A stretch of 32,281 nt of DNA from Bacteroidia bacterium (lineage in GTDB: Bacteria; Bacteroidota; Bacteroidia; Palsa-965), in assembly GCA_035489505.1 (NCBI GenBank), contig DATHKF010000684.1, forward strand, positions 1 through 32,281. The letters run 5' to 3'. This document shows, piece after piece, positions 820-30,739 of this stretch (the first letter of the stretch is position 1; each line of letters opens with the position of its first letter). The translations under genes and the position numbers were made by a program. A model generated the notes under the pieces. The model was given only the letters and a program-made list of their open reading frames with translations. It did not search any database and was not told where the DNA came from.

Positions 820-968
820 TTAACCGCAGAGGCGCGGAGGCGCAGAGAAATTGGTTTGGCGCAGCCTGCAATGGTCGCTGAGCCTTTCATTGGTGCATAC
901 CGTAAACTCTGCGAACATTGCTGACTCTTTAAGTAATGTGCTCTGCGACTCCGCGACTCCGCGGTAAA
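820..968. repeat. Palindromic element, family C copy 1 (arms ACCGCAGAGGCGCGGAGGCGCAGAG / CTCTGCGACTCCGCGACTCCGCGGT)
   Basis: The 25-nt arms at 823-847 and 941-965 pair at 22 of 25 positions. The termini are the same as in the copy at 12427-12556. The element starts 2 nt after the E2 stop codon. Confidence 0.8.
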
Positions 969-991
969 AATTTCATCCCTGGCTTATCATG

Positions 992-1025
992 AAAAAAAAG
1001 TACCAGGAGGGGAACTGCCTGGCAC
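992..1025 (-). terminator. Candidate intrinsic terminator of the 1084-1581 gene
   Basis: The minus strand reads GTGCCAGG-cagttcccct-CCTGGTAC followed by TTTTTTTT. The stem is 8 bp with one mismatch plus a T8 run, about 60 nt downstream of the stop. Confidence 0.5.
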
Positions 1026-1083
1026 CATGCGGTCGGATTGATGGGGGCATCAATCTGTATATTTCAGATATAGGGAATGCGGT

Positions 1084-1581
1084 TTACAGGTCGGCTGTTT
1101 CTTTTTCGCTCGGATTGATCCGGACATTACGGTGATACTGCCTGTTGTATTCAAAGTCTTTCGTTTTCTCGTGGTAGTTGATGTGCGCTACAGGAAAATC
1201 ATCAAACGTGTTGGGCTCAGCATTATTGGGGATAAATGTGATGAGGTAACGGAACGTGTAGCTTTTAGAAAGACCTTCTTCAGGAACGTGCGTATCAATA
1301 AGCAGCACGCGTTCTTTATATCCTTCTTTCACGAATTTGATCGCATAGTTCCGGTTCAGGTCGAGATCGAAGAACACTTCTTTTCTCGCATCCACGAAGA
1401 ATGTATCGGTCGGCGCACCATTCTCGAAAACATAGACCCAGTAATTACTCACTACTTTTCCACCTACGGCCATGTTGCCAGAAAGGAGTACAATGTGCTC
1501 AGCCGGCTTCTCTTTGGCTTCGTCGGCGTTAACGGTTAATCCTGCAAGGAGGAAGGTGAGTGTGATTAATGCAGTTTTCAT
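1084..1581 (-). CDS. Secreted hypothetical protein (signal peptide MKTALITLTFLLAGLTVNA)
   Basis: I chose the ATG at 1581 inside ORF 1084-1605 because it starts a canonical signal peptide. I recognised no family motif. Confidence 0.7.
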   Translation of the reverse strand: MKTALITLTFLLAGLTVNADEAKEKPAEHIVLLSGNMAVGGKVVSNYWVYVFENGAPTDTFFVDARKEVFFDLDLNRNYAIKFVKEGYKERVLLIDTHVPEEGLSKSYTFRYLITFIPNNAEPNTFDDFPVAHINYHEKTKDFEYNRQYHRNVRINPSEKETADL

Positions 1582-1602
1582 CAGTTGTTGTTTTTGATGA
1601 AG

Positions 1603-1610
1603 CAAACCTA
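1603..1610 (-). promoter_or_regulatory. Bacteroidota -7 promoter box TAGGTTTG
   Basis: Exact match to TAnnTTTG on the minus strand, 21 nt upstream of the ATG at 1581. Confidence 0.4.
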
Positions 1611-1691
1611 CTGCGGCCGGGGCGGCGGTTAAAACCAGTGCTGGTCAAATCTTTGCGGATGTAAGATTCTGCCGGAAATTGTATAAAAAAC

Positions 1692-1929
1692 GACAGTGTC
1701 TCAGTTTGAACATTTGCTATTTGACACGGCGACACGGCGCATTTTTACGGTATTTCTTATTCTAAGCCCGGGCGCTCACGGCGAGATAACGGTAACTTCA
1801 CTATAGAATGAAAGATTTCCGCTTGGCGGAAATACAATTGGTCTCGCCGTGAACGCGCGGGCTTAGAACGGGTTTTGTGCTTCTTTTAGCGCCGTGTCGC
1901 CGTGTCAAAAAGCAAAGTGAGACACTACC
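1692..1929. mobile_element. MITE-like nested palindromic element, family A copy 1
   Basis: The ends are GACAGTGTCTCAGTTTGAA... and ...GTGAGACACTACC. There is a perfect 20-bp inner inverted repeat, TTGACACGGCGACACGGCGC (1721-1740 / 1889-1908), and a third nested palindrome TTCTAAGCCCGGGCGCTCACGGCGAG. The 8-nt flanks are TAAAAAAC and AAAAAAAC. The interior is ~95% identical to 9699-9901. Confidence 0.6.
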
Positions 1930-2171
1930 AAAAAAACCGTCCCCTCCTGGTTCCGAAGTTTCGGGAGGGAGGGGATGGTGGGTCCTGTATCTGTCATCGG
2001 GGGACTGATGACAAGTGTTCAGGATTTGAAAATGAGGTGCCTGTGCTTCCGGTTGACGGTGGCAAACATACAAAACGGTCGCCGGATTTTAAATTCAAAT
2101 TCGACGTAGTGCAGAATTAGTGGTTACATAAGACAACATTGAGTCAAAAATTGTGTAAATTTTTGTAGGAT

Positions 2172-2498: not shown

Positions 2499-2502
2499 CG
2501 GA

Positions 2503-4161: not shown

Positions 4162-6267
4162 GTGGCAGACAGTTTTCTCGATACGCCGGTAGAATTTTTG
4201 AAAGGAGTTGGTCCTGAACGTGCGCGTGTACTTAAAACTGAATTCGATATTCAAACGTTTGGCGACCTGCTGAAGTGGTATCCGTACCGGCATGTTGACC
4301 GCACAAAATTTTACTCCACGTCGGAAATTCACGCAGACCTTCCATACGTGCAGTTGAAAGGACAAATCCTGAACCTGCAGATTATCGGCAAGCAAAAAGG
4401 TCAGCGTGCAGTTGCACAACTGGTCGATGGAAAAGGAAGTCTTGAACTCGTTTGGTTCCAGGGATTGAAATGGTTGCAGGGAAAATATGTTCCGGGAAAA
4501 GAGTACATCGTTTTCGGGAAGCCAACAGTGTACGGTGGAAAAATAAATATTGCACATCCCGATATCGAAGAAGTCAAAGAAGAAAATGCTCCGCGTGCGA
4601 ATGTTCTTCAGCCCATGTATTCTTCATCAGAGAAAGCCAAATTCAAGGGCCTTGATTCCAAAGGAATTTTGAAACTGATGAAAGTGCTTGTGCCAATGGC
4701 TGAAGGCAAGGTGCCGGAAATTCTACCCGCGTCGGTGATTGAAAAACTGAAAATGCTCCCGCGTTCTGAAGCACTGAAGCAGATTCATTTTCCTTCGGAT
4801 GCAGCGATTCTTCGCCGGGCAGAAGCACGGATCAAGTTCGAGGAATTCCTGATGATCCAGTTGCGTTTGCTGCGCGTGAAGAACCTGCGGAAAACAAATT
4901 TCAAAGGATTTGATTTTGGAACCGTTGGTGAAAAGTTCAACAGCTTTTACAAAGACAATCTTCCGTTCCCGCTTACGAATGCACAGAAGCGTGTGATTAA
5001 AGAAATCCGCGCCGACATGGGAAGCGGTAAACAAATGAATCGTTTGCTGCAGGGAGACGTGGGCAGCGGGAAAACCGTTGTTGCACTCATGTGCATGCTC
5101 ATTGCAAACGATAACGGTTTCCAGGCCTGTCTCATGGCGCCAACGGAAATTCTGGCGAACCAGCATTTTCATTCCATCAGCGAATTGCTGCATGGACTTC
5201 CGGTGCGGATTGCGATGCTTACCGGAAGTTCGAAGCGATCGGAACGAAAAGTATTGCATGAAGCGTTGCGCAATGGCGAAATCGATATTCTGATTGGTAC
5301 TCACGCGCTCATCGAAGATGAAGTGAAGTTCCGCAACCTTGGCTTTGTGGTGATCGACGAGCAGCATCGTTTTGGTGTAGAGCAGCGGTCGAAACTCTGG
5401 AAGAAGAATACGAATCCACCGCACATTCTCGTCATGACTGCAACGCCTATTCCGCGTACGCTCGCAATGACGTTGTACGGCGATCTTGATACTTCGGTAA
5501 TCGATGAACTACCGCCGGGACGCAAGCCGATTAAAACCGTTCATTATTTCGACTCGCAACGTTTGCGTGTGTTTGGTTTTATGAAAGAGCAGATCGAACT
5601 GGGAAGACAGGTCTACGTGGTGTATCCATTGATCCAGGAATCGGAGAAGATGGATTACAAAGATCTCATGGATGGATACGAGAGCATATCGCGTGCGTTT
5701 GCACCACCGGAATTTCGCGTGAGTATTGTTCACGGAAAAATGAAACACGCCGACAAAGATTTCGAAATGCAGCGGTTTGTGAAACGCGAAACGCACATCA
5801 TGGTTGCCACAACGGTGATTGAAGTGGGCGTGAATATTCCGAACGCCAGCGTGATGGTGATTGAGAGTGCAGAACGTTTCGGCTTGTCGCAACTTCACCA
5901 GCTGCGCGGAAGGGTGGGGCGTGGTGCGGAACAATCTTTCTGCATCCTGATGACCGGAAGTAAACTGAGCAAAGATTCGAAACTGCGCATGGACACCATG
6001 GTGCGTACAAACGATGGGTTCGAAATTGCGGAAGTCGACCTGAAGCTCCGTGGCCCCGGTGATCTCGAAGGAACACAACAGAGCGGACTAACCGGTTTGC
6101 GGCTTGCCGACATTACTAAAGACGTAAGCATTTTGAAGCACGCGCGCGGAGTAGCTGCGGAAATTCTCGATGCTGATCCGGCGCTGGAGAAAAAAGAGAA
6201 TGCGCCGCTGTATGCGGAACTGGCGCGGGAGCAGAGTAGTTCGGTGAATTGGGGACGAATCAGTTAA
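4162..6267 (+). CDS. recG: ATP-dependent DNA helicase RecG
   Basis: 701 aa. The N-terminus has LKGVGPERA and a wedge/OB region. Walker A is GDVGSGKT and motif II is VIDEQHRFGV. TATPIPRTL and QLHQLRGRVGRG are also present. GTG start. Confidence 0.97.
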   Translation: MADSFLDTPVEFLKGVGPERARVLKTEFDIQTFGDLLKWYPYRHVDRTKFYSTSEIHADLPYVQLKGQILNLQIIGKQKGQRAVAQLVDGKGSLELVWFQGLKWLQGKYVPGKEYIVFGKPTVYGGKINIAHPDIEEVKEENAPRANVLQPMYSSSEKAKFKGLDSKGILKLMKVLVPMAEGKVPEILPASVIEKLKMLPRSEALKQIHFPSDAAILRRAEARIKFEEFLMIQLRLLRVKNLRKTNFKGFDFGTVGEKFNSFYKDNLPFPLTNAQKRVIKEIRADMGSGKQMNRLLQGDVGSGKTVVALMCMLIANDNGFQACLMAPTEILANQHFHSISELLHGLPVRIAMLTGSSKRSERKVLHEALRNGEIDILIGTHALIEDEVKFRNLGFVVIDEQHRFGVEQRSKLWKKNTNPPHILVMTATPIPRTLAMTLYGDLDTSVIDELPPGRKPIKTVHYFDSQRLRVFGFMKEQIELGRQVYVVYPLIQESEKMDYKDLMDGYESISRAFAPPEFRVSIVHGKMKHADKDFEMQRFVKRETHIMVATTVIEVGVNIPNASVMVIESAERFGLSQLHQLRGRVGRGAEQSFCILMTGSKLSKDSKLRMDTMVRTNDGFEIAEVDLKLRGPGDLEGTQQSGLTGLRLADITKDVSILKHARGVAAEILDADPALEKKENAPLYAELAREQSSSVNWGRIS

Positions 6268-6348
6268 TGTGCTGATGTGAAAATGTGCTAATTGATCCTT
6301 CGGCAAGCTCAGGACGCGCCTGCGGCAGCAAGGAATTTTTTCTTTTGT

Positions 6349-6418
6349 GTTATTAACCCCGGGTTACGATCCTTCGGATCTCACCCGGGGTTAATAACAT
6401 TCGACCCCTTCAGGGTCG
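6349..6418. other. Nested hairpins downstream of recG
   Basis: GTTATTAACCCCGGGT (6349-6364) pairs perfectly with ACCCGGGGTTAATAAC (6383-6398) and encloses the mini-hairpin GATCC-TTC-GGATC. A second hairpin, CGACCC-cttca-GGGTCG, lies at 6402-6418. No T-run follows. Confidence 0.6.
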
Positions 6419-6507
6419 TGCAATTCACAAAGAAGCAAATGCCGGGACTTTCAAAGTTGCGCGACCGTGAAGGGGGCGAATGTCCCTTGAACGAAGTGAA
6501 AGGGAAA

Positions 6508-6639
6508 AATGATTTGCTAAAATCTTTGTCGACTTCGATACAATTAACTGTTGTCACTTCGAGTGTCCGACGAAGGAGGAGGTATCGAGAAGCGACAACA
6601 GTTAATCACTCAGTCTGACAAAGATTTTAGCAAATCATT
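6508..6639. repeat. Palindromic element, family B copy 1
   Basis: The 110-nt core (6519-6628) is ~96% identical to 18438-18546, and the first 62 nt are identical. The copy-specific outer stem AATGATTTGCT (6508-6518) / AGCAAATCATT (6629-6639) is perfect. The right arm contains the TGA stop (6635-6637) of the DUF2723 gene. Confidence 0.85.
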
Positions 6640-9600
6640 CCATCGGAATCTTCAACGCATCCATCTCTTTCTTCCACTGCGTAGTGAGCGCGGTTTGTCC
6701 GTACAGATCAGCGAGGCTGTAGAGCAATTGAATCTGCCCGATCTTATTGCCCTGGTCGCCGGAAGGACGCGGAAGTGTGTCGTACCATTTCACACATTGT
6801 ATAAAATGCGTGAATGCTTCGTTCGCAATTTTGTTGGCGAGTACATTATCGCCGCTCATCCATGCCGCATCGGTGAGACTGATCCAATAATCGTCGGGCA
6901 GAATTTGCGAAGCAGGAATACGTTCCGTGCAGATGCGTACAAGATCAGCCGCTTCATCGTTCATTCCTGCTTCTGCGAGTGCATGTGCAGTAACTGCGCA
7001 TGAATACCTGTACGGATCGCTGAACATGCGTTGCGTGGTTTCATCGGCATACACATCCGGATTTTCAAGTCCGCCCCAGCTGAATTTCTCTGTGAAAAGC
7101 CGGTAGCATTTTTCAAGATTCACCAAAGGACGCTCGGTGAGATCAGGATCTTCGCGGTGATTGAACGTTGGTACAAAACGGTACGTTAATCCTTCGAGCT
7201 GCAGGTAATTTCCAAGACCACCGTAGCAGCTCATAGGCATATTCACAGCGAAATGAATCGGACGTTTCCATTCGTTGTGTGCAAGAATATCCAGGATGAT
7301 GATCTGATCTTTCAAAAGATAACTTCCCGGAATCGTCCAGACTACTTCACCCGAATCATTGTCCGCCGCAATTTTCACGAAGCGTGTGGGAATATAATTC
7401 ACCGTATCGCCCGACATGGTTTCATACTTGTACTGAAAATCTTCCTGCGTAAAAAATGTAACCACATTTTCCAGGAGCATGGTGTCCTTACCGGCATCAA
7501 TGCTCAGCCAGTCGCGGGTTCCTTCGCGGTATTGCCACGGATCGAGGGAAATAGGCATAGGCTCGGATGTGTATTGTTTTTTCTTGGCCTGGTCGATGTA
7601 CCAATCGCTGCGGAACAGGGAAAGACAAACAATACGCACATCGCGACGAATGCCTAAAACTTCCTGGGCGTACCACAAAGGGAAAGTATCATTGTCGGCG
7701 TACGTAAACAGGATTGCATTTTTCTCGCACGATTCCAGCATACTTACGGCCAGGTCGCGCGCTACGGTACGGTGTGAGCGATTGTGATCGTCCCAGTTCT
7801 GCACGAGCACAATAGTGGGAACAATTCCGCTTACGGCAACTGCAGCAACGAGCGTGAGTGTTCTGCCCACGCTTTTTTTCAGATCATAAAGAACCATCAC
7901 ACCGAGCCCGATCCAGATGGCGAATGCGTAGAACGAACCCACATAGGCATAATCACGCTCACGTGGTTGCCACGGCGTTTGATTGAGATAAACAACAACA
8001 CAGAGACCCGTGAATAAAAACAAGAGCGTTGTAACCAGCGCATCGCGCTTTGCCCACATGAAGTGATAAATGATCCCGATGATTCCCAGTATGAGCGGAA
8101 GAAACCAATACCCGTTGCGCGCTTTGTTGTTTTTTAAAAGTGTGGGTTCAATATCGTGATCACCGATACGGAAATCATCGAGGAATGAAATGCCCGATCG
8201 CCAGTTACCTTCTGCATCACCGCCATAGCCGGCGAAATCGTTTTGTCGTCCAACAAAATTCCACATGAAGTAACGGAGATACATCCAGCCTACCTGGTAC
8301 GTAGTGAAGAACCGCATGTTTTCGCTGAACGTTGGAATATTGACAACGGCGCTCTTCCCATCTTCATTCGCGAAATCAACTTCGTTGCCTTTGATCTCTA
8401 CCCAGTTGGTGTACGCACTTTTGTGGCCGGAGCTGTACATGCGCGGGAAAAATACGCAACCGCGGCTGTCGTAATTCAGAACGGTTCCTTTGCGTGAATC
8501 ACTCACGATGTAGCGACCCGATTTTTCATCTTTCACGTAAACCGGGTTTCCATCGGCCCACGGTTCTTTTGCATCCTGCGGCGAATTGAACTGCGGCCCG
8601 TACAGCAAAGGCCAGTCGCCATACTGTTCGCGATTGAGGTACGACAACAAACTCACCGGATCGGAAGGATTGTTTTCATTGATCGGAGTTCCTGCATTGG
8701 CGCGAATCACGATCACGAGAAAACTGGAATAGCCAAGCAGCAATACCGTGAAAGCGAGAACAGATGTATTGAGCCAGCGGATTTTATTTTTGATGGACCA
8801 CCACAATCCGAACACAATCAGTGCGGCCAGCAAAACAAAAAAGGCGATGATCCCGGAATTGAACCGCATGCCCATTTCGTTCACAAAAAATAATTCACTC
8901 TTCCCGGCAAGTTTTACAATTCCCGGAATGAGTATGTCTTGTATGCCACCAAGCAGCACGAGTGCAGTAACAAATGTGATGAGGAATCCGCGCCACGTGA
9001 TGCGTTGTGTTTTCCGGAAGTACCAGATGAAAACGAGTGCGGGAATTGCAAGAAGGTTCAACAGATGCACTCCGATGGACATTCCGATGAGTGCCGCAAT
9101 CAATACAATCCAGCGGTCGCTGCGCGGATCGTCGGCCTGGTCTTCCCAGCGCAACATCGCCCAGAAAACAATGGCGGTGAAAAGTGATGACAACGCGTAC
9201 ACTTCGCCTTCCACTGCCGAAAACCAAAACGAATCGGTGAATGCATACGTGAGCGATCCGCACATGCCGGCAAGCATCACGAGTACCAGTCGTCCCTGCG
9301 AGAAAGGTTGCTGGTAACGGAGAATAATTTTCTTCGCGAGATGCGTGATGGTCCAGAACAAAAACATGACGGTTGCAGCGCTCGCCAGTCCCGACATGCA
9401 ATTCACCAGCCAGGCTACGTTTTCATTATTTCCGAATGACAGTAATCCAAAAGCGCGACCGAGAATCATGAAGAACGGCGCTCCCGGAGGGTGACCGCTT
9501 TCGAGTCCCCAGGCGCAGGCAATGTATTCGCCGCAATCCCAGAAACTGGCTGTTGGTTCGAGTGTGAGCAGGTAAACAATTGCCGCGATGGCAAAGACGA

Positions 9601-9649
9601 TCCAACCGGTAATAATGTTGAGAAGACGGTATTGTGGAGGAAGGTTCAT
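6635..9649 (-). CDS. DUF2723-family polytopic membrane protein (glycosyltransferase-like, ~1000 aa)
   Basis: LTLEPTASFWDCGEYIACAWGLESGHPPGAPFFMILGR is the hallmark N-terminus of Bacteroidota DUF2723 proteins. The protein has many TM helices and a large C-terminal soluble region. I prefer the ATG at 9649; a TTG at 9658 is the alternative but overlaps the -7 box. Confidence 0.85.
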   Translation of the reverse strand: MNLPPQYRLLNIITGWIVFAIAAIVYLLTLEPTASFWDCGEYIACAWGLESGHPPGAPFFMILGRAFGLLSFGNNENVAWLVNCMSGLASAATVMFLFWTITHLAKKIILRYQQPFSQGRLVLVMLAGMCGSLTYAFTDSFWFSAVEGEVYALSSLFTAIVFWAMLRWEDQADDPRSDRWIVLIAALIGMSIGVHLLNLLAIPALVFIWYFRKTQRITWRGFLITFVTALVLLGGIQDILIPGIVKLAGKSELFFVNEMGMRFNSGIIAFFVLLAALIVFGLWWSIKNKIRWLNTSVLAFTVLLLGYSSFLVIVIRANAGTPINENNPSDPVSLLSYLNREQYGDWPLLYGPQFNSPQDAKEPWADGNPVYVKDEKSGRYIVSDSRKGTVLNYDSRGCVFFPRMYSSGHKSAYTNWVEIKGNEVDFANEDGKSAVVNIPTFSENMRFFTTYQVGWMYLRYFMWNFVGRQNDFAGYGGDAEGNWRSGISFLDDFRIGDHDIEPTLLKNNKARNGYWFLPLILGIIGIIYHFMWAKRDALVTTLLFLFTGLCVVVYLNQTPWQPRERDYAYVGSFYAFAIWIGLGVMVLYDLKKSVGRTLTLVAAVAVSGIVPTIVLVQNWDDHNRSHRTVARDLAVSMLESCEKNAILFTYADNDTFPLWYAQEVLGIRRDVRIVCLSLFRSDWYIDQAKKKQYTSEPMPISLDPWQYREGTRDWLSIDAGKDTMLLENVVTFFTQEDFQYKYETMSGDTVNYIPTRFVKIAADNDSGEVVWTIPGSYLLKDQIIILDILAHNEWKRPIHFAVNMPMSCYGGLGNYLQLEGLTYRFVPTFNHREDPDLTERPLVNLEKCYRLFTEKFSWGGLENPDVYADETTQRMFSDPYRYSCAVTAHALAEAGMNDEAADLVRICTERIPASQILPDDYWISLTDAAWMSGDNVLANKIANEAFTHFIQCVKWYDTLPRPSGDQGNKIGQIQLLYSLADLYGQTALTTQWKKEMDALKIPME

Positions 9650-9655
9650 GAGGGG

Positions 9656-9663
9656 CAAAGATA
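9656..9663 (-). promoter_or_regulatory. Bacteroidota -7 promoter box TATCTTTG
   Basis: Exact TAnnTTTG on the minus strand, 6 nt upstream of the ATG at 9649. This implies a leaderless or near-leaderless mRNA. Confidence 0.45.
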
Positions 9664-9698: not shown

Positions 9699-9901
9699 GG
9701 CAGTGTCTCACTTTGCTTTTTGACACGGTCCGATAGCAATCGGGAGCGCATTTTTACGGCATTTCTTATTCTAAGCCCAGGCGCTCACGGTGAGATAACG
9801 GTAACGCGCCGTGAGCGCCCGGGCTTAGAACGGGTTTCGTGCTTCTTTTAGCGCCGTGTCACCGTGTCAAAATTATCAAATGTTCAAACTGAGACACTAC
9901 C
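9699..9901. mobile_element. MITE-like nested palindromic element, family A copy 2
   Basis: The ends are GGCAGTGTCTCAC... and ...CAAACTGAGACACTACC. The interior is the same as copy 1 at ~95% identity, but the short and long end types are swapped. The left inner arm is interrupted by the mini-hairpin CCGAT-AGCA-ATCGG (9730-9743). Confidence 0.6.
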
Positions 9902-12426: not shown

Positions 12427-12556
12427 TTCACCGCAGAGGCGCAGAGTCCATTGTTGGAAGTGAGCAAAGGTCGCGGAGGTTTTGAGATAGTGTAAAATAA
12501 AAAATGGCAGCGAATTTTCGCTGCCATTTTTTATTTCTCTGCGTCTCCGCGGTGAA
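12427..12556. repeat. Palindromic element, family C copy 2, filling the whole convergent gap
   Basis: TTCACCGCAGAGGCGCAGAG (12427-12446) pairs with CTCTGCGTCTCCGCGGTGAA (12537-12556) with 2 mismatches. It starts 1 nt after the pheT TAA and ends 1 nt before the stop of the TPR gene. Confidence 0.8.
12499..12532. terminator. Bidirectional intrinsic terminator
   Basis: AAAAAA-TGGCAGCGAA-tt-TTCGCTGCCA-TTTTTT: a perfect 10-bp stem flanked by A and T runs, between convergent genes. Confidence 0.85.
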
Positions 12557-14717: not shown

Positions 14718-14853
14718 AGGTCATGTATTTGGTTGTATAAAATTACAAAGGAAGGCAGGAAAAAAGAATGATTTTCGTCAGGTAAACGGGATTAATCGGT
14801 GAATGAACGGCTGTCGCTAATGGCTCACCGGAAATCAAATTCCAGACCTGTCA

Positions 14854-15213
14854 TTACTTGTATGCCTGGATTAAAACTTCGGTTGGAATTTTCAAACTAT
14901 CGTGTAGCAATCGAATCATTTCCAAAGTCAACTTTCGCTTACGGCTCAGTATTTCACTTGCACGACTTTTCAGGCCGACAATATTTGCCAGGTCACTTTG
15001 AGTATATCCCATTTGTTCCATGCGGAATTTTATAGCCTCGATGGGATCCGGAAATCCTATTGGAAAGTGCTCATCTTCGTATTTCTCAATCAGGATTGCA
15101 AGGATTTCGAGTTCATCGCCCTCACGCGAACCTTTTTTTGCATCAAAAATGACTTCCAGCCGTGCAAGTGCATTTTGATAATCCTTTTTGTTTTTAATGG
15201 GTTTTATTGTCAT
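14854..15213 (-). CDS. higA: HigA-family (YgjM-like) type II antitoxin / HTH regulator, apparently orphan
   Basis: IKNKKDYQNALARLEVIFDAKKGSREGDELEILAILIEKYEDEH...PDPIEAIKFRMEQMGYTQSDLANIVGLKSRASEILSRKRKLTLEMIRLLHDSLKIP matches the HigA/COG5499 pattern. Confidence 0.85.
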   Translation of the reverse strand: MTIKPIKNKKDYQNALARLEVIFDAKKGSREGDELEILAILIEKYEDEHFPIGFPDPIEAIKFRMEQMGYTQSDLANIVGLKSRASEILSRKRKLTLEMIRLLHDSLKIPTEVLIQAYK

Positions 15214-15218
15214 GGTTT

Positions 15219-15263
15219 CTAAATATTATTTGCGGCCACTTTGTCGTACTCGGCGAAGTTATT
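15219..15263 (-). pseudogene. higB: Relic of the 3' end of a HigB (YgjN-type) toxin gene
   Basis: The minus-strand frame reads NNFAEYDKVAANNI*, with a TAG at 15219-15221 that lies 5 nt before the higA ATG. HigB toxins of this family end in ...TH(A/K)EYDK.... The frame is closed by a TGA at 15264-15266, so only 14 codons remain. Confidence 0.5.
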
Positions 15264-15271
15264 TCAAATGG

Positions 15272-15920: not shown

Positions 15921-16030
15921 ATTGAAACCGCTTAAGCGGTTGAACCTCCAGTTGTATTCATTGCCGGGGGCTTAAGCCCCCGGCAATAGAAAAGGGCGGG
16001 TTGCCAAAACGGTTTTTAACCGTTTTTTCG
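15921..16030. repeat. Three-hairpin module, family E free copy
   Basis: AACCGCTTAAGCGGTT (15926-15941, perfect palindrome); ATTGCCGGGGG-CTTAAG-CCCCCGGCAAT (15960-15987); AAAACGGTT-ttt-AACCGTTTT (16006-16026). The same three modules, in the same order, occur inside element A3 at 22911-23005. Confidence 0.8.
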
Positions 16031-17180: not shown

Positions 17181-17247
17181 CGTCATCGCGAGGCACGAAG
17201 CGATCCCATCTCTTAAAGAAGGGACTGCTTCGTGCCTCGCAGTGACG
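17181..17247. repeat. Palindromic element, family D copy 1
   Basis: CGTCATCGCGAGGCACGAAGC...GCTTCGTGCCTCGCAGTGACG. The reverse complement aligns with 23063-23132. It ends exactly at the TAA (17248-17250) of the next gene. Confidence 0.75.
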
Positions 17248-18312
17248 TTACCGCGGTCTTGGAGAACGAGGCACTGGTCGTGGCTGCGGACGCGGTGCCG
17301 GAGTTGGCCGTGGAGCCGGTGCAGGATTTACACGTGGCCTTGGCGCAGGTGCCGGTTGTGGTTTCACATCTGGTCGTGGTGCAGGCGCAGGCGGTGGTTG
17401 CACATTATCCTTGCGTTGCGGTGCCGGTGCGGGTTGTGCATTGTCTTTTCGTTGCGGCGGTGACGGATCACCACGCTGTTGTGGTGCATTCGACGGAGTT
17501 GCGGTTGATTTACGCGGCGGATCGTTTGCACGTGGTTTTCCACCGGTTGCATCTGCGTAACGCGTGCGTGCTCCTTCAGTACGCTGCTCGACACTGGTTG
17601 AAGTTACGCGTCGCGGTTGGTACACGGAGTGCGCGTCGTGCATGTGATACGCCGGTGCGCAGCAATAGTAGTAATCGTGATAGACGTAGACCCAACCATA
17701 GTACGTGTAATAAGGATAGGGTGCCCACGGATCGTACCAGTATGGATAATACGCCCAGTAGTACGGCGAAACCCAGATTACATAACCGGGATAGTATACG
17801 TATTGCACACAAGGCCAGTACCAGACATTCACAAACACCCATTGCGGCGCTGCGAATTCCTGCCAGTGTGCATCGTCTGTCGCAGTTGAATCTTCATTGC
17901 GCGGTTCCACGATGTAATTTTTTCCGTAGAGCAATTCATCACCGATGATCTGCACCTGCGCGGAATTATCATCGCGTTTTTCCAATTCGATCACGGCAAC
18001 GTCCTGCGATTCTTTATCGTTGACCGGAACGCGCAACACGAAGGCATGCGCATTGTCTTTTTTCAGATCGTGCACGGTGATGTAATCGACGTTGCCGTCG
18101 CCGTTCAGGTCCAGGTTGTTGACTTTCGAATCTTTGGAGTTGAGGCGCTTCTCAAAATTTTCCGGCGAACTTGATTTTTTGAAAAGATCAAGTGTTGCGC
18201 GAAGATCAAGGTGATCTCCGGGCAGGCCAGTAGAATCAGGATTGTCTGCCAATGCTGGTGTAAAAAAACCAAGCGATGCAGAAGCGACGATACATACAAT
18301 GAACTTTTTCAT
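17248..18312 (-). CDS. Secreted protein with an EF-hand-like loop, an extreme Tyr/Trp-rich block and a Pro-rich basic tail
   Basis: The ATG at 18312 gives the signal peptide MKKFIVCIVASASLGFFTPALA. DLNGDGNVDYITVHD is a Ca-loop-like motif. The 66-aa block at 17644-17841 has 22 Tyr and 8 Trp. The C-terminus reads PAPAPRPDVKPQPAPAPRPRVNPAPAPRPTPAPRPQPRPVPRSPRPR. Confidence 0.75.
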   Translation of the reverse strand: MKKFIVCIVASASLGFFTPALADNPDSTGLPGDHLDLRATLDLFKKSSSPENFEKRLNSKDSKVNNLDLNGDGNVDYITVHDLKKDNAHAFVLRVPVNDKESQDVAVIELEKRDDNSAQVQIIGDELLYGKNYIVEPRNEDSTATDDAHWQEFAAPQWVFVNVWYWPCVQYVYYPGYVIWVSPYYWAYYPYWYDPWAPYPYYTYYGWVYVYHDYYYCCAPAYHMHDAHSVYQPRRVTSTSVEQRTEGARTRYADATGGKPRANDPPRKSTATPSNAPQQRGDPSPPQRKDNAQPAPAPQRKDNVQPPPAPAPRPDVKPQPAPAPRPRVNPAPAPRPTPAPRPQPRPVPRSPRPR

Positions 18313-18429
18313 AACGCACAGGATTTGCTTTCTATACAAAACATGCGGCAAGAACTATTCCATGTGGAAATTGGGTTGTTTTGATCGGTTGGGTGAAATG
18401 GGGTGGGGAAGTACGTACACAGTATTACG

Positions 18430-18554
18430 CAAATTCCAAAATCTTTGTCGACTTCGATACAATTAACTGTTGTCACTTCGAGTGTCCGACGAAGGAGGAC
18501 GTATCGAGAACGACAACGGTTAATCACTCAATCTGACAAAGATTTTGGAATTTG
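18430..18554. repeat. Palindromic element, family B copy 2
   Basis: The core at 18438-18546 is ~96% identical to 6519-6628. The copy-specific outer stem CAAATTCC (18430-18437) / GGAATTTG (18547-18554) is perfect. The element ends 2 nt before the hutU TGA. Confidence 0.85.
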
Positions 18555-22863: not shown

Positions 22864-22880
22864 TCCGGAGTAGGGAGTTC

Positions 22881-23044
22881 GGTAGTGTCTCAGTTTGGCC
22901 ATTGGGGATTTTTGAAAACCGCTTAAGCGGTTGAATGTTTAGGACTGTTCATTGCCGGGGGGCAATGAACCCGGTAAACCAGCTCAACGGTTTTAACCGT
23001 TTCCATGCCACAAATCTTAACTGATTTCAAACTGAGACACTACC
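22881..23044. mobile_element. MITE-like element, family A copy 3, carrying family E cargo
   Basis: Perfect 16-bp TIRs GGTAGTGTCTCAGTTT / AAACTGAGACACTACC, with a perfect 8-bp direct repeat GGGAGTTC immediately outside both ends (22873-22880, 23045-23052). Confidence 0.7.
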
Positions 23045-23062
23045 GGGAGTTCGGAGGCTAGC

Positions 23063-23132
23063 CGTCACTGCGAACGCTCTTCAGCGAAGCAGTCCCCTCT
23101 TTGAAGACGGGATTGCTTCGTTCCTCAATGAC
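23063..23132. repeat. Palindromic element, family D copy 2 (degenerate)
   Basis: CGTCACTGCGA...GAAGCAGTCCCCTCTTTGAAGACGGGATTGCTTCGTTCCTCAATGAC aligns with the reverse complement of 17181-17247. The left arm is disrupted. Confidence 0.6.
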
Positions 23133-23886: not shown

Positions 23887-23996
23887 TGCCACTAAGGCGC
23901 TAAGTCTCCAAGTCGCACTAAGAAATTTCTTAAGAAATAAGTGAGAAAGTCATATTCTCCTTTGTGTTTCTTAGTGGCTTTGTGTCTTCGTGGCCA
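23887..23996. repeat. Imperfect palindromic element built from xxCTAAG / CGAAG sub-repeats (family H)
   Basis: GCCACTAAG (23888-23896) pairs with CTTAGTGGC (23970-23978). The left arm is GCCACTAAG-GCGCTAAG-TCTCCAAG-TCGCACTAAG and the right arm is CTTAGTGGC-TTTGTGTCTTCGTGGCC. The centre has two palindromes, AGAAATTTCT and TTCTTAAGAA. Confidence 0.6.
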
Positions 23997-24103: not shown

Positions 24104-25045
24104 ATGAAACGACAAATCGTTTTGGTCTTCGTATTGCTGTTTTCTTCGGTACTGGCTTTTGCACAGCCGGCGGAAAAGAAAAACACACCCCAGGATTACA
24201 TTGATCTGTATAAGGACGATGCGATCCGCGAGATGCAGTTGTTCAAAGTTCCGGCGAGCATTACGCTTGCGCAGGGAATGCTTGAATCCGACAATGGGAA
24301 TAGCGCACTTGCTGTGTACGCCAATAATCATTTTGGAATCAAGTGTCACAAAGAGTGGACGGGCGAAACATATACACAGGACGATGACACGAAAGATGAA
24401 TGCTTCCGCAAATACGGAACGGTGTATGATTCGTACGTCGATCATTCCGAATTTCTGAAATCGCGTCCACGGTATGCGTCATTGTTTGAGTTGAAGCTCA
24501 CCGACTACAAAGGCTGGGCGAAAGGGCTGAAGTCGGCCGGTTACGCAACAGATCCGAAATACGCAGATCGCCTGATCGATATTATCGAACGGTATAAACT
24601 CCACGAGTTTGATAAACTGGAAGGACTTCCACCGGTAGCTGCAGAACCGAGGAAGACAGAAGGAAACAAAACAGTTTCAACGAATGTTTCCCGCCGCGAA
24701 ATTTACTTCAACAACAACATCAAGTATGTGATTGTAAAGCCCGGCGATACGTTCATGAAAATTGCGCAGGAGCTGGACATGGGTGTGTGGCAGTTGTACA
24801 AGTACAACGACATGAATAAAAACACCGTGCTCAAGCCGGGACAGATTCTTTACATACAACCGAAACGTCGCAAAGCAGAACCGGATAAACACCAGATGAA
24901 ACCGGGGGAGACTATGCACGATGTTTCTCAGAAGTACGGCATCAAGCTGAAGAAGCTTTATAAGTACAACGAGATGGAGCAGGGGACGGAGCCGAAGGCG
25001 GGGCAGGTGATCTATCTTCGAAAGCGGAAGCCAGTCAGGAAATAG
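24104..25045 (+). CDS. Secreted N-acetylglucosaminidase (FlgJ/mannosyl-glycoprotein endo-beta-GlcNAcase domain) with two LysM domains
   Basis: ASITLAQGMLESDNGNSALAVYANNHFGIKC...YDSYVDHSEFL is the glucosaminidase domain. The two LysM repeats are YVIVKPGDTFMKIAQEL...LKPGQILYI and HQMKPGETMHDVSQKYG...PKAGQVIYL. Confidence 0.9.
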   Translation: MKRQIVLVFVLLFSSVLAFAQPAEKKNTPQDYIDLYKDDAIREMQLFKVPASITLAQGMLESDNGNSALAVYANNHFGIKCHKEWTGETYTQDDDTKDECFRKYGTVYDSYVDHSEFLKSRPRYASLFELKLTDYKGWAKGLKSAGYATDPKYADRLIDIIERYKLHEFDKLEGLPPVAAEPRKTEGNKTVSTNVSRREIYFNNNIKYVIVKPGDTFMKIAQELDMGVWQLYKYNDMNKNTVLKPGQILYIQPKRRKAEPDKHQMKPGETMHDVSQKYGIKLKKLYKYNEMEQGTEPKAGQVIYLRKRKPVRK

Positions 25046-25216
25046 TGTCGGTATCAGTGTCAGTCAGGGCGTGCACGGATACTGTGCTTTCGTTTAACAA
25101 TTGCCTTCAAAAATTAACCACTCTCCTGTCTCTGTGATTAAATGGTGATGACCGTAAATAATGTCAGAGCCGCAGTCGTTGTTGATACGCCATGACACTG
25201 ACGCTGATACCGACAC
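25046..25216. repeat. Palindromic element filling a convergent gap (family F)
   Basis: GTGTCGGTATCAGTGTCAGTCAG (25046-25068) pairs with CATGACACTGACGCTGATACCGACAC (25191-25216); the outer 13 bp are perfect. It starts 1 nt after the TAG at 25043-25045 and ends 7 nt before the GATase stop. Confidence 0.75.
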
Positions 25217-25223
25217 TTTTTCA

Positions 25224-25829: not shown

Positions 25830-25911
25830 GGTAATGTCTCAGTTTTATTCAGGCCGCGAATTACACGAATTACGCTAATCACTCCTTAGCGTAATTCGTG
25901 TAATTCGCGGC
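25830..25911. repeat. Solo family-A end followed by a perfect 26-bp-stem hairpin
   Basis: GGTAATGTCTCAGTTT (25830-25845) matches the A TIR at 15 of 16 positions. GCCGCGAATTACACGAATTACGCTAA (25853-25878) and TTAGCGTAATTCGTGTAATTCGCGGC (25886-25911) are perfectly complementary, with the loop TCACTCC. Confidence 0.8.
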
Positions 25912-26651: not shown

Positions 26652-26795
26652 ATCATCGTTTTTTTGGTTTGGATAAATGTGCTGAAAAATATTCACTTAA
26701 ACATCCCCCATTTGGGGGAGGAGTGTGTGATCGGGTGTTATCTGGTGTTGCTTAATAGGAACGCGGACCGCTCGCTGCGCTTGCGGCGCGGATTG

Positions 26796-27013
26796 AAAAG
26801 GATTGACGCGGATGATCGCTACGCGATCGGGATTACTTGCGAAACTTAATGGTACGCGGATGTCACCTTCGGTGACGCATAGAAAAAACGGATTGGAGCG
26901 GATGATCGCTACGCGATCGATATGAATGGTACACGGAACACGCAGAACTTCACGGAAACCATAAAACAAAATTCCGTGTCAATCTGTGTATTCCGTGCAT
27001 TCTGTGTACCATT
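26796..27013. repeat. Composite repeat region (family G)
   Basis: Perfect 22-nt direct repeat GCGGATGATCGCTACGCGATCG at 26808-26829 and 26898-26919 (90-bp period), each followed by AATGGTAC(G/A)CGGA (26848, 26925). AATGGTACAC (26925-26934) pairs with GTGTACCATT (27004-27013). Mini-hairpin GTCACC-ttc-GGTGAC at 26861-26875. Confidence 0.7.
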
Positions 27014-27135: not shown

Positions 27136-27164
27136 CGTTTCACAAGTTCGCGATGACGTTTTAA

Positions 27165-29735: not shown

Positions 29736-29777
29736 AGGAGGTGTGGTTAAGAAGGCTAAAGATATAAAAAATCGTGT

Positions 29778-29970
29778 GCGGGAAGCAGGGAAGAGGGGAC
29801 AGGAAGGCGGGGGTCAGGAGGCAGGAAGACAGGGGTTCAGGAGGCAGGGAAACAGGGATTCAGGGGGGCAGGAAAACAGGGATTCAGGGGGCAGGAAGAC
29901 AGGGGTTCAGGAGGCAGGGAAACAGGGATTCAGGGGGCAGGGAAACAGGAGGTCAGGAGGCAGGAATAGA
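29778..29970 (+). repeat. Purine-rich degenerate tandem array (unit ~22-24 nt, GCAGGRAAACAGGGRTTCAGGRG), upstream flank of the four-helix cassette
   Basis: About 7 units. A 45-nt block is exactly duplicated (29821-29865 = 29891-29935). Contains the G4-type run GGGG-N11-GGG-N5-GGG-N5-GGGGGG at 29831-29867. Confidence 0.9.
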
Positions 29971-30115
29971 GTTCGTTGCGGGGAAGAAAGATGTGGCGGA
30001 TAAAGGCGCGTGGAAACGTTTACAAACGACTACAAACGTTTACATCCGACTACAAGTACTTAAATACCGACTAGTTCCAGGGAAGGCAATTACCATTGCA
30101 AAAAATCAAAAAGTT

Positions 30116-30511
30116 ATGACACAAAACAAAGGTTACCGTTCGTTGATTGCCTACCAGAAATCTTTTAATCTGGCAATGGCCATTTTTCGTTTAACTAAAA
30201 AATTTCCAGCAGAGGAGAGATATGAGTTAACCAGCCAGATCAGAAGATCATCGAGGTCGGTTTGTGCAAACCTGGTTGAGGGCTATCGTAAAAGCATGTA
30301 TCCTAAACTCTTCATGAACAAACTGGTTATTTCAGACGGTGAATGCTCGGAAACGTTGCTATGGCTGGAATTTGCTGTGGCATGTGAATACATTTCTACC
30401 GAGGAATTTACCAAGTACGAATTGCTTATCGAAGAGGTCGGCAAATTGTTGGGGGCGATGATTAAAACGCCGGAGAGATTTGGAGCGATGCGGGGACGGG
30501 TAGCTAAGTAG
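30116..30511 (+). CDS. Four-helix-bundle protein (23S rRNA intervening-sequence protein / Avd-like family)
   Basis: 131 aa. YRSLIAYQKSFNLAMAIFRLTKKFPAEERYELTSQIRRSSRSVCANLVEGY...ECSETLLWLEFA is the canonical TIGR02436/PF05635 pattern. The upstream part of ORF 29774-30511 is only a translated tandem repeat. Confidence 0.88.
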   Translation: MTQNKGYRSLIAYQKSFNLAMAIFRLTKKFPAEERYELTSQIRRSSRSVCANLVEGYRKSMYPKLFMNKLVISDGECSETLLWLEFAVACEYISTEEFTKYELLIEEVGKLLGAMIKTPERFGAMRGRVAK

Positions 30512-30680
30512 GGCGGGTGGCAGGAAAGCAGGGGTTCAGGAGGCAGGGAAATCAGGAGGCAGGAAAAGCAGGTATTCAGGTAGCAGGAAATCAGGTGGCA
30601 GGAAAGCAGGTATTCAGGTAGCAGGGAGATCAGGTGGCAGGAAAGCAGGAGGCAGGTATTCAGGAGTTCAGGATGCAGGA
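30512..30680 (+). repeat. Purine-rich degenerate tandem array, downstream flank of the four-helix cassette
   Basis: About 8 units of GCAGGAAAGCAGGTATTCAGGTA / GCAGGRARATCAGGTG type on the same strand as the upstream array. It shares GGGGTTCAGGAGGCAGGGAA with that array. Confidence 0.9.
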
Positions 30681-30739
30681 ACTCTGAGAGCCGATCTCTC
30701 GCTCCCTGCCTCCTGAACTCCTGAATACCTGCCTCCTGC
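30645..30739. repeat. Long hairpin closing the cassette (29-bp perfect inverted repeat)
   Basis: GCAGGAGGCAGGTATTCAGGAGTTCAGGA (30645-30673) is exactly complementary to 30711-30739, and 5 further bp extend the stem. The right arm overlaps by 1 nt the TAG (30739-30741) of the minus-strand gene. Confidence 0.9.

What the first reader, a model, noticed from the sequence alone, without database searches (positions are those of the whole stretch)
820..30739. Intergenic DNA is saturated with at least eight palindrome families whose arms are built from 8-10-nt tandem sub-repeats
At least 14 of the 19 gaps longer than about 100 bp contain such elements (families A-H plus the cassette arrays). Within the arms the sequence is periodic. 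Examples are GAGGCGCG/GAGGCGCA; GACACGGC x2; GAATTACAC/GAATTACGC; GCCACTAAG/GCGCTAAG/TCTCCAAG; ATTCCGTGT/ATTCCGTGC/ATTCTGTGT; and CAGGAGGC/AGGAAGAC. Palindromes are nested inside the loops, and even the arms, of other palindromes. This density and architecture is not explained by terminators alone, and I do not recognise it from the named bacterial repeat families (REP/BIME, ERIC, BOX, RUP, Correia/NEMIS, Nezha).
Basis: partly seen in the sequence, partly recalled or inferred. Interest (0 to 1): 0.62.

Follow-up and report, generated by a model that had tools for sequence, protein, structure and literature searches.

The report
Hairpin repeats with periodic arms
The gaps between genes of this soil Bacteroidota genome are packed with hairpin-forming repeats, many with arms made of 6-10-base tandem units; two of the arm sequences recur almost unchanged in many bacterial phyla, where they sometimes enclose small genes, a repeat class I found no description of.

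Summary
Fourteen of 19 gaps of 90 nt or more fold far better than shuffles (z -4.6 to -12; coding controls -0.55). Inverted-repeat arms cover 12% of gap DNA against 0.2% of coding DNA. The arms usually abut stop codons.

Periodic arms are real in families C, E, F, G and H, in the second-tier arms of A, and in the arrays around the four-helix-bundle gene. They are absent from B, D and the three-hairpin block. The saturation is composite:
- Family A is an ordinary MITE, with 17-bp inverted ends and an 8-bp target duplication.
- The rest are hairpins without target duplications.

The families are not confined to the window. They recur along the 76 kb I could walk. Several reach 10-40 times baseline depth in the source metagenome.

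The two arm words I tested, C and E, occur near-identically across many phyla and in viral contigs. They mostly occur without a gene, and sometimes enclose PD-(D/E)XK nuclease, PIN or Y1-transposase genes. Relatives of the window's four-helix-bundle gene are bracketed by similarly built arms.

Among family E copies the arms are 90-100% conserved while the 5-nt loop is random.

Best reading: horizontally spread, REP-like non-autonomous hairpin elements recognised through their arms. The mobilising enzyme and any RNA role remain unknown.

The parts
820..968 (.). Family C copy 1. Arms 824-847 (AGAGGCGC/GGAGGCGC units) and 941-964, with a 93-nt loop. It starts 2 nt after the stop of the 2-oxoacid dehydrogenase E2 gene.
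   Evidence: The arm is 25/26 identical to an arm in a gammaproteobacterial MAG (L269).
1692..1929 (.). Family A copy 1, MITE-like, a four-level nested palindrome. Outer ends are 1695-1708 and 1913-1929. Second-tier arms 1713-1740 and 1889-1916 contain GACACGGC x2. Third-tier arms are 1760-1786 and 1842-1868. An apical mini-hairpin lies at 1806-1840.
   Evidence: Metagenome depth is about 10 times baseline.
6348..6484 (.). Two adjacent hairpins, 6348-6399 (perfect 17-bp stem) and 6397-6484. The left one belongs to a high-copy family.
   Evidence: Depth is 51 against about 5, with 15 contigs carrying different flanks at 6316/6317.
6508..6639 (.). Family B copy 1, not periodic. The 110-nt core is 6519-6628. 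An 11-bp copy-specific outer stem overlaps the stop codon of the minus-strand gene 6635-9658.
9699..9901 (.). Family A copy 2, about 95% identical to the interior of copy 1.
   Evidence: Copies 84-96% identical occur in JGI soil contigs.
12427..12556 (.). Family C copy 2. It fills the whole convergent gap between pheT and the TPR gene. Arms are 12429-12446 and 12537-12554. It encloses the bidirectional terminator-like hairpin 12495-12536.
15921..16030 (.). Three-hairpin block, not periodic. It also occurs inside family A copy 3 and at contig position 44590-44700.
   Evidence: Depth is 104 against about 5.
17181..17247 (.). Family D copy 1, not periodic: a 31-bp-arm hairpin that ends exactly at the stop of gene 17248-18351.
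18430..18554 (.). Family B copy 2. The core is 96% identical to copy 1, but the outer stem is different and again perfect.
22873..23052 (.). Family A copy 3. Inverted ends are 22881-22897 and 23028-23044. The 8-bp direct duplication GGGAGTTC lies at 22873-22880 and 23045-23052. The cargo is the three-hairpin block.
23064..23132 (.). Family D copy 2.
23888..23994 (.). Family F. The left arm 23888-23922 is built of units ending in CTAAG or CCAAG. The right arm is 23970-23994.
   Evidence: A similar element lies at contig position 87626-87750.
25039..25222 (.). Family H. Arms with 6-nt GTNTCA units enclose a 132-nt loop and fill a convergent gap.
   Evidence: The same arms with an 18-nt loop occur elsewhere in the metagenome.
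25853..25911 (.). Family E. A perfect 26-bp-arm hairpin (GAATTACAC, GAATTACGC) with a 7-nt gap between the arms.
   Evidence: (sharp ends at 25853 and 25911, depth about 15 times baseline, no duplication).
26745..26920 (.). CGCGGAT-word repeat region, with direct copies at 26796-26829 and 26886-26919 and local hairpins. It is the highest-copy family.
   Evidence: an 89% copy at contig 89701-89775; depth up to 230 against 5.9.
26925..27013 (.). Family G. The arms are built from ATTCYGTGY units.
29778..29970 (+). Left G-rich array of CAGGNNNN units (super-period about 23 nt), upstream of the four-helix-bundle gene. Its length differs by 70 nt either way among three assemblies.
30014..30053 (+). 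Four tandem 10-nt units (AAACGTTTAC/AAACGACTAC) upstream of the four-helix-bundle gene. The stretch is multi-copy in the metagenome.
30116..30511 (+). 131-aa four-helix-bundle gene (Pfam 23S_rRNA_IVP, bAvd-like), the only cargo gene among the window's elements.
30512..30740 (.). Right G-rich CAGG array (30512-30680) and the single C-rich arm (30705-30738). The C-rich arm pairs locally with 30644-30679 and could also pair with the left array.

Best explanation
The saturation is a mixture of small non-coding repeats.

**Family A** is a classical MITE.

**Families C, E, F, G and H and the arrays around the four-helix-bundle gene** are one kind of thing. They are non-autonomous, horizontally spread hairpin elements. 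Each arm is a short head followed by about 2.5-3 tandem units of 6-10 nt.

The arms are the recognised and conserved part. What lies between them is free:
- a few random bases
- another hairpin
- a terminator
- in a minority of copies elsewhere, a small gene (four-helix-bundle/IVP, PD-(D/E)XK 'GxxExxY' nuclease, PIN, Y1 transposase)

**What is shown:**
- Copies are discrete, multi-copy units without target duplication.
- They pile up at gene 3' ends, hard against stop codons.
- They nest inside each other's loops.
- For the two words tested (C and E), the arm words are shared across phyla.

**What is inferred:**
- They are copied REP-style, as single-stranded DNA hairpins, by an enzyme that reads the repeated units. 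That could be an HUH/Y1 transposase or a cassette-borne nuclease acting in trans.
- Once transcribed as 3' tails, the stems behave like the stems of rRNA intervening sequences. They would be cut or would block exonucleases, which makes the insertions harmless or mildly useful.

Families B and D and the three-hairpin block are plain palindromic repeats that share the same niche.
For: **Real and non-random.** Fold z-scores and arm coverage. Density is 0.29 strong palindromes per kb, against 0.073 per kb in 80 other Bacteroidota pheT neighbourhoods.

**Discrete multi-copy units.** Family E has sharp ends at 25853 and 25911, with six contigs of differing flanks on each side. Its depth is about 82-93 against 5.9, and there is no duplication. 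Families A, 6317-6400, the three-hairpin block and 26767-26830 reach 10-40 times baseline. One JGI soil sample holds the exact E arm on at least 20 large contigs.

**Arms constrained, loops free.** Among 15 full-length E copies the right arm, which was not used as search key, is 90-100% conserved per column. The 5 loop columns are 30-45% conserved.

**Cross-phylum words.**
Nearly all read CCACGAATTACACGAATTACACGAAT. They come from Bacteroidota, Planctomycetota, Verrucomicrobiota, Chloroflexota, Acidobacteriota and others, cultured isolates included. Forty-eight have a partner arm.
- GGAGDCGC x2.5 gave 120 loci where about 10 were expected by chance, 64 with a partner. L269 matches window 822-847 at 25 of 26 bases. 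L317 carries the same head around a PDDEXK_3 gene.
- Twelve viral contigs carry the 21-mer.

**Same build around small genes.** Eighteen of 24 relatives of the window's four-helix-bundle gene, from about ten phyla, sit between inverted arrays of 7-8-nt units. PDDEXK_3, PIN_3 and Y1_Tnp genes occur in long loops.

**Position.** Seven of 8 convergent gaps hold a strong palindrome. Thirteen of 21 arm-to-stop distances lie within 9 nt.

**Nesting and modular cargo.**. L427 has a family A MITE inside an E hairpin.

**DNA-like stems.** Mismatches are rarely G.U and show no strand bias.

**Family A as a MITE.** Inverted ends plus the perfect 8-bp duplication. Copies 84-96% identical lie in JGI soil contigs from other genomic contexts.
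Against: - No mobilising enzyme was found. The 76 kb walked holds no transposase, and the whole genome could not be searched.
- No empty site or insertion polymorphism was caught. The apparent gene-less junction 29965-30542 turned out to be another locus.
- If all copies were young transposition products, their loops should be as alike as their arms, and they are not. So either the arms are held by selection in place, or the loop is remade at each copying.
- Cargo genes sit next to the two tested words in only about 3-5% of loci. The link between gene-less hairpins and gene cassettes therefore rests on shared build and, for family C, shared sequence.
- The units of the window's own four-helix-bundle arms (CAGGNNNN) match none of its gene-less hairpins.
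- Docking at stop codons would also fit a host function.
- No RNA data could be obtained.
Confidence: 0.55

Rival explanations
1. Host-serving RNA structures. The hairpins would be 3'-UTR elements kept by selection. They would stabilise mRNA against 3' exonucleases, act as RNase III sites, insulate convergent transcripts, or couple translation of adjacent genes. Repeated units would give many pairing registers and so fast, robust folding.
For: - The arms abut stop codons, and 7 of 8 convergent gaps are occupied.
- Pure promoter gaps are unstructured.
- The arms are far more conserved than the loops.
- In other Bacteroidota, the gap after the pheT stop holds analogous but unrelated periodic palindromes.
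- rRNA intervening sequences with the same gene family are cut by RNase III in their stems (PMC4990558).
- Xanthomonas heptamer repeats are transcribed (PMC4692102).
Against: - The stems are near-perfect Watson-Crick, with few G.U pairs and no strand bias. Selected RNA helices usually show both.
- Many unrelated word families do the same job in one genome, and the same words occur in distant phyla. That fits spread better than local selection.
- Content turns over between relatives about 92% identical.
- Five of 10 divergent (promoter) gaps also hold elements.
- The closest available relative, L001, has none around pheT.
Confidence: 0.2
2. Local mutational by-product. Replication slippage would make tandem units. 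Template switching (quasi-palindrome correction) would copy one arm onto the other and grow the palindrome outward until it meets coding sequence. No mobility or recognition would be involved.
For: - Family B copies share a 96% identical core, yet each has a different, perfect outer stem that reaches the stop codon.
- Unit-number changes are seen: 70 nt more or fewer in the CAGG array among assemblies, and 4 of 21 E copies lack one unit in one arm.
- The stems are DNA-perfect.
Against: - It cannot produce the same 23-26-nt arms, heads included, at dozens of loci and in many phyla.
- It cannot explain the sharp common boundaries.
- Asymmetric unit loss persists uncorrected in some copies.
Confidence: 0.1
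3. Arrays of binding sites for a DNA- or RNA-binding host protein, or G-quadruplex-type structural repeats, acting in regulation or chromosome organisation.
For: - The arms have a fixed number of units (about 2.5-3) and conserved words.
- G-rich heptamer repeats of Xanthomonas and Nostoc form G4 in vitro and prefer four units (PMC4692102).
- Cold-shock proteins bind heptamer repeats (reviewed in PMC4679880).
Against: - At least eight different words occur in one genome, most of them not G-rich (GAATTACAC, CTAAG).
- The elements come as inverted pairs rather than simple arrays.
- They are under-represented in pure promoter gaps.
- Distribution among related genomes is patchy.
Confidence: 0.08

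Closest known systems
REP / BIME / REPIN elements mobilised by RAYT (Y1, IS200/IS605-like) transposases
   Same: Both are short extragenic hairpins. Both are multi-copy, lie mostly downstream of genes, lack target duplication, and have conserved stems with variable loops. Both are often nested or clustered. One Y1_Tnp gene flanked by related arrays was seen (L233).
   Different: Arms here are 18-37 nt, against 5-13 bp. They are built of tandem units. They have no unpaired GTAG or CGTC tag (PMC3733652). Loops range from 5 to more than 130 nt and can hold genes. For the two words tested, the same arm sequence is shared across phyla. No RAYT was found in the 76 kb available.
Tandem heptamer intergenic repeats: cyanobacterial STRR, GGGAATC of Xanthomonas and GGGGAYT of Nostoc (PMC4692102), TAACTGA of Beggiatoaceae, Cyanobacteria and Bacteroidetes (PMC4679880)
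   Same: Both have tandem units of 7 or so bases in non-coding DNA, a preferred small number of units, and a position within about 50 nt of stop codons. Both are under-represented between divergent genes. Inverted pairs are noted in both. The same unit occurs in unrelated phyla with no known transfer mechanism.
   Different: Units here are mostly 8-9 nt and of many different words in one genome. The inverted-pair (hairpin) form dominates. Arms have a defined head and end. Some copies enclose small genes. None of these points is described in those papers.
23S rRNA intervening sequences carrying the S23p / four-helix-bundle ORF (Leptospira, Coxiella; PMC4990558)
   Same: The gene family is the same (PF05635). 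In both, the gene lies between inverted sequences able to form a long stem. Both show a sporadic, horizontally transferred distribution.
   Different: The element here lies between protein-coding genes, not in rRNA. Its flanks are tandem-unit arrays, two of them on the same strand plus one inverted arm. RNase III excision is untested. Most elements in the window have no gene.
MITEs (Correia/NEMIS, Nezha and others)
   Same: Family A has 17-bp terminal inverted repeats, an 8-bp target duplication, no coding capacity and many copies.
   Different: The periodic-arm families show no target duplication. Family A carries two unrelated interiors between the same ends.
Integron gene cassettes with attC sites
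   Same: Both involve small promoter-less genes of toxin, nuclease and unknown types, associated with imperfect palindromes.
   Different: Here the two arms bracket the gene, whereas attC is a local hairpin after it. No integrase and no attC core motif was looked for or seen, and most copies are gene-less.

Membership tests
REP (GTAG- or CGTC-tagged, PMC3733652) | Short stem (5-13 bp) with a loop of 2-20 nt | tested here: not met
   Arms are 18-37 nt, and the distance between arms runs from 0 to over 150 nt.
REP (GTAG- or CGTC-tagged, PMC3733652) | Unpaired GTAG or CGTC tetranucleotide at one end | tested here: not met
   Families C, E, F, G and H have no such tag. Family D begins with CGTC, but it is paired with GACG inside the stem.
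REP (GTAG- or CGTC-tagged, PMC3733652) | A RAYT gene flanked by the repeats somewhere in the genome | not testable with these tools
There is none in the 76 kb walked.
REP (GTAG- or CGTC-tagged, PMC3733652) | Extragenic, mostly downstream of genes, multi-copy, no target duplication | tested here: met
MITE | Terminal inverted repeats plus a direct target-site duplication, non-coding, multi-copy | tested here: met
   Met for family A only: ends 22881-22897 and 23028-23044, with GGGAGTTC on both sides, and depth about 10 times baseline. Not met for family E, which has no duplication at 25853 or 25911.
Tandem heptamer repeat class (STRR, GGGAATC, TAACTGA) | Head-to-tail units of 7 nt in intergenic DNA | tested here: inconclusive
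   Tandem units are present, but the period is 6-10 nt, mostly 8-9. Relatives of the four-helix-bundle gene do have 7-nt units.
Tandem heptamer repeat class (STRR, GGGAATC, TAACTGA) | Close to stop codons and rare between divergent genes | tested here: met
   Thirteen of 21 distances lie within 9 nt of a stop. Unstructured gaps are promoter gaps. Family A MITEs are the exception.
23S rRNA intervening sequence with S23p ORF | Inserted in a 23S rRNA helix | tested here: not met
   The cassette lies between an OmpA-family gene and a beta-propeller gene, and the window has no rRNA.
23S rRNA intervening sequence with S23p ORF | ORF of the PF05635 family between terminal inverted repeats | tested here: met
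   PF05635 at E 1.7e-32. The C-rich arm 30705-30738 is complementary to units of both G-rich arrays.
23S rRNA intervening sequence with S23p ORF | Excision of the element from the transcript by RNase III | not testable with these tools
   No RNA run holds this organism.
Any Rfam RNA family | Match at the family's gathering score | tested here: not met
   No matches at gathering score. Only sub-threshold eukaryotic miRNA-precursor models hit the long hairpins.
Integron attC cassette | attC core sites and an integron integrase | not tested
   Considered only. The arrangement differs, since the arms bracket the gene.

The most novel reading that the evidence does not exclude
Periodic-arm hairpins would be an undescribed, phylum-spanning class of selfish element. 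A dedicated protein would read the tandem units one by one. Candidates are the pentameric Avd-like four-helix-bundle protein, the GxxExxY PD-(D/E)XK nuclease, or a Y1 transposase. That protein would copy or home the arms, with or without cargo, into the single-stranded loops of existing hairpins at gene ends. This would tie together cyanobacterial STRRs, the Xanthomonas heptamer repeats, rRNA intervening sequences and the very abundant 'four-helix-bundle' and 'GxxExxY' orphan genes.
Probability: 0.25. Interest if true: 0.85.

Novelty: new variant of a known kind. Interest (0 to 1): 0.7.

Why it matters
Intergenic tandem 7-9-nt repeats have been noted since the cyanobacterial STRRs, without any function or mechanism.

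The window shows three things together:
- Such repeats mostly come as hairpins with defined ends.
- For the two words tested, the arm sequences are conserved far beyond what vertical descent allows, across phyla and in viral contigs.
- The same arms sometimes enclose two of the commonest orphan gene families of environmental bacteria.

This gives a testable link between several unexplained features.

It also matters in practice. These elements break short-read assemblies. Gene callers extend the four-helix-bundle gene into the upstream array, giving 232 or 245 residues instead of 131. The elements also fill a quarter of the non-coding DNA of this genome.

Tried and rejected
- **Own genome.** I walked the public contig instead and used metagenome depth.
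- **RNA evidence.**
  - Only DNA runs hold the window.
  - Runs found for a Flavobacterium locus with an E-type array were contig-level, with even depth and a gap over the array. They say nothing about processing.
  - The Sphingomonas search gave only weak holders.
- **Empty site for the four-helix-bundle gene.** The junction 29965 to 30542 matched only about 20 nt on each side. It belongs to another locus with a similar array. Rejected as an empty site.
- **G.U wobble and strand bias as a test of RNA selection.** There were too few mismatches: 3 sense, 7 antisense, 28 other. The result leans weakly against RNA selection.
- **Terminators.** The scan was not enriched over shuffles.
- **Rfam.** The e-value hits are generic long-hairpin matches to miRNA precursors.
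- **CGTC-REP membership of family D.** Rejected, because the CGTC is paired and the stem is three times too long.
- **CRISPR.** The only array lies outside the window, next to cas9, and is unrelated.
- **Cyanobacterial origin (HIP1).** My first guess, dropped after one GCGATCGC hit and the PheT relatives.
Full report
**What the window is**

Pfam matches and PheT relatives place the window in Bacteroidota. The best PheT match is 62% identical, to a Bacteroidia MAG. The window is positions about 46918-79268 of a 150,580-bp contig of a public soil metagenome assembly.

I therefore walked the contig gene by gene and obtained 76.4 kb. I used the sequencing runs that hold the window as a proxy for copy number.

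Yes.
- Of 19 gaps of at least 90 nt, 14 fold with z-scores from -4.6 to -12.1 against dinucleotide shuffles. Coding pieces of the same lengths average -0.55.
- The five unstructured gaps are promoter-side gaps.
- Over the 76 kb, gapless inverted-repeat arms cover 12.4% of gap bases, 0.19% of coding bases and none of shuffled gaps. The palindromes span about a quarter of all gap DNA.
- The density of strong palindromes is 0.29 per kb, against 0.073 per kb in 80 pheT neighbourhoods of other Bacteroidota.
- Terminator-like sites are not enriched over shuffles. Only about three of the palindromes have a hairpin followed by a T run.

**Periodicity of the arms**

It is real but not universal. Eleven of 29 strong arms have a self-shift identity of at least 0.57, mostly at a period of 6-9 nt (one of the 11 at 5 nt). 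The mean is 0.51, against 0.40 for coding controls and 0.42 for shuffled arms.
- Families C, E, F, G and H are periodic. So are the second-tier arms of family A and the arrays around the four-helix-bundle gene.
- Families B and D and the three-hairpin block are not.

**Anatomy and position**

Seven of 8 convergent gaps, 7 of 18 tandem gaps and 5 of 10 divergent gaps hold a strong palindrome. Of 21 distances between an outer arm and the adjacent stop codon, 13 lie within 9 nt, and several arms overlap the stop.

Family A is a MITE.
- It has 17-bp inverted ends, and copy 3 has a perfect 8-bp duplication, GGGAGTTC.
- Two copies share one interior. The third carries the three-hairpin block, which also occurs free at 15921-16030 and at contig position 44590-44700.

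Family B has two copies with a 96% identical 110-nt core. Each is extended by a different, perfect outer stem that reaches the neighbouring stop codon. This fits either insertion at the centre of an older palindrome or outward growth by template switching.

The stems are almost pure Watson-Crick. Among 52 mismatched positions only 24 could be G.U on either strand, with no bias to the transcribed strand.

**Not confined to the window**

Outside the window, the same contig holds further copies of families C, D and F, of the CGCGGAT family and of the three-hairpin block. It also holds new periodic hairpins with other words: GCAAAG, GCAGATTAC, GTAGGCAA, GCTGAGAC.

In the run that holds the window, baseline depth is about 5-6. 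It rises:
- to 62-67 over family A
- to 51 over 5912-6575
- to 104 over the three-hairpin block
- to 82-93 over family E
- to 150-230 over 26782-26794

Contigs with unlike flanks begin exactly at 25853 and end exactly at 25911. So family E is a discrete 59-bp unit without target duplication.

A relative about 92% identical in the genes has different content in several of the same gaps. The left array of the four-helix-bundle cassette differs by 70 nt either way among three assemblies.

**The arm words cross phyla**

This was the main surprise.

*Word E.*
- Nearly all hits read CCACGAATTACACGAATTACACGAAT.
- They come from Bacteroidota, Planctomycetota, Verrucomicrobiota, Chloroflexota, Acidobacteriota, Ignavibacteria, Cloacimonadota and others, including cultured isolates.
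- Forty-eight have an inverted partner, mostly with loops under 250 nt.

*Word C.*
- The pattern GGAGDCGC x2.5 gave 120 loci where about ten were expected by chance, 64 of them with a partner.
- One gammaproteobacterial arm matches window 822-847 at 25 of 26 bases.
- A betaproteobacterial locus has the same head (AACCGCAGAGGCGC) around a 122-aa PDDEXK_3 (GxxExxY) gene.

*Shared features.*
- The arms have a preferred size of about 2.5-3 units and a conserved head: TTCA before word C, and a C preceded by T/A-rich sequence before word E.
- Twelve viral contigs carry the 21-mer.
- Long loops hold PDDEXK_3, PIN_3 and Y1_Tnp genes. Such cargo is a small minority.

**The four-helix-bundle gene**

The one gene-bearing element in the window is a 131-aa PF05635 protein, of the family found in 23S rRNA intervening sequences and in DGR Avd.

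Its relatives at 29-60% identity are scattered over about ten phyla. Of 24 inspected, 18 lie between inverted arrays of 7-8-nt units such as GGCAGTT, GGGAGTC, GGAGACGC, TCGGTAA and GTCGTAA.

The GGAGACGC word of family C's right arm is among them.

**Arms constrained, loops free**

A scan of JGI metagenomes with the exact 23-nt E arm found 51 loci. At least 20 are on large contigs of one soil sample.
- Among 15 full-length copies the other arm is 90-100% conserved per column, while the five loop columns are 30-45% conserved, close to random.
- Four of 21 copies lack one unit in one arm.
- One copy has a family A MITE inserted in it.
- Family A copies in those contigs are 84-96% identical to the window's.

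Equal neutral decay cannot give this contrast. Either the arms are held by selection or conversion, or the loop is made anew at each copying.

**Interpretation**

I read the periodic-arm families as REP-like non-autonomous elements whose arms are the recognised part. They spread within and between genomes, collect at gene 3' ends, and tolerate any filling between the arms.
- *Shown:* their reality, multiplicity, sharp ends, position, nesting, arm conservation, cross-phylum spread (for the two words tested), and shared build with small-gene cassettes.
- *Inferred:* the copying route (single-stranded hairpin DNA read by an HUH/Y1 enzyme or a cassette nuclease) and the RNA behaviour of the stems (by analogy with RNase III cutting of rRNA intervening sequences, PMC4990558).

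A host RNA function is the main rival. Slippage plus template switching probably shapes the elements, but cannot create the shared arms.

**Literature**

I found no description of palindromes with tandem-unit arms that enclose these genes. The nearest accounts are:
- the GTAG/CGTC REP catalogue (PMC3733652), whose defining features are not met
- the Xanthomonas/Nostoc heptamer repeats (PMC4692102)
- the TAACTGA repeats shared by Beggiatoaceae, Cyanobacteria and Bacteroidetes (PMC4679880)

The last two report tandem repeats in intergenic DNA and leave their function open. PMC4692102 places them near stop codons. PMC4679880 notes an unexplained cross-phylum distribution.

Earlier notes of this scan on other genomes describe the same class. 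I used them as leads and repeated the key tests here.

Noticed in passing
window 14809-15272: In a relative about 92% identical (run X4), the higA-like HTH gene 14854-15213 is absent and 15 other bases stand in its place. The orphan antitoxin is therefore a variable insertion.
   Followed up: no
window 29774-30511; L082 1902-2600: Gene callers extend the 131-aa four-helix-bundle gene upstream into the G-rich array, giving 232 or 245 residues. The array is open in that frame, so database entries of this family may carry spurious repeat-derived N-termini.
   Followed up: partly
window 30014-30053: The 10-nt tandem repeat AAACGTTTAC/AAACGACTAC upstream of the four-helix-bundle gene occurs on at least three other contigs of the source metagenome, each with different flanks. 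It may be a shared leader of paralogous cassettes.
   Followed up: partly
L086 1-7000 (contig about 99-106 kb, outside the window): A type II-C CRISPR-Cas9 locus (cas9, a DUF72 gene, cas1, cas2) with an array of 47-nt repeats, GTTGTGCTTGACAAGAACGAAGATACAATCTGAAAGCAATTCACAAC. Next to it lies a 486-aa SNIPE/T5orf172/MUG113 protein.
   Followed up: no
L233 6040-6990: A Y1 (IS200-like) transposase gene lies between 22-29-bp inverted ends. Outside these are arrays of GGTAATTCGG units on one side and CCCGAGTTTC units on the other. This is a possible link between periodic arrays and HUH transposases.
   Followed up: partly
L196 1-2400: Two consecutive cassettes are bracketed by CACGAATTA arms about 400-570 nt apart. 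One holds a frameshifted PDDEXK_3 gene, so cassettes can stand in tandem.
   Followed up: partly
window 6292-6320; contig 89410 and 93495: The motif CCTTCG(A/G)CA(A/G)GCTCAGGAC recurs at three gene ends. From memory, I know it as the source of 'FDKLRT'-type spurious peptides in many MAG annotations.
   Followed up: no
L384, L389-L391, L402, L403, L408, L411, L412, L419: In the JGI soil sample, the E hairpin is usually embedded in a larger composite repeat: ...GGAACGGGATTAAATTTT, then the hairpin, then AAAAAATATTGCGGTGATTGAT... The window's own copy does not have this context.
   Followed up: no
L025 5400-5671, L064 5409-5506, L039 5402-5458, L040 5506-5596: In Daejeonella, Mucilaginibacter, a Cytophagaceae MAG and Spirosoma, the gap right after the pheT stop also holds a palindrome with tandem-unit arms (8-nt in most). 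The words are AT-rich and unrelated to the window's.
   Followed up: partly
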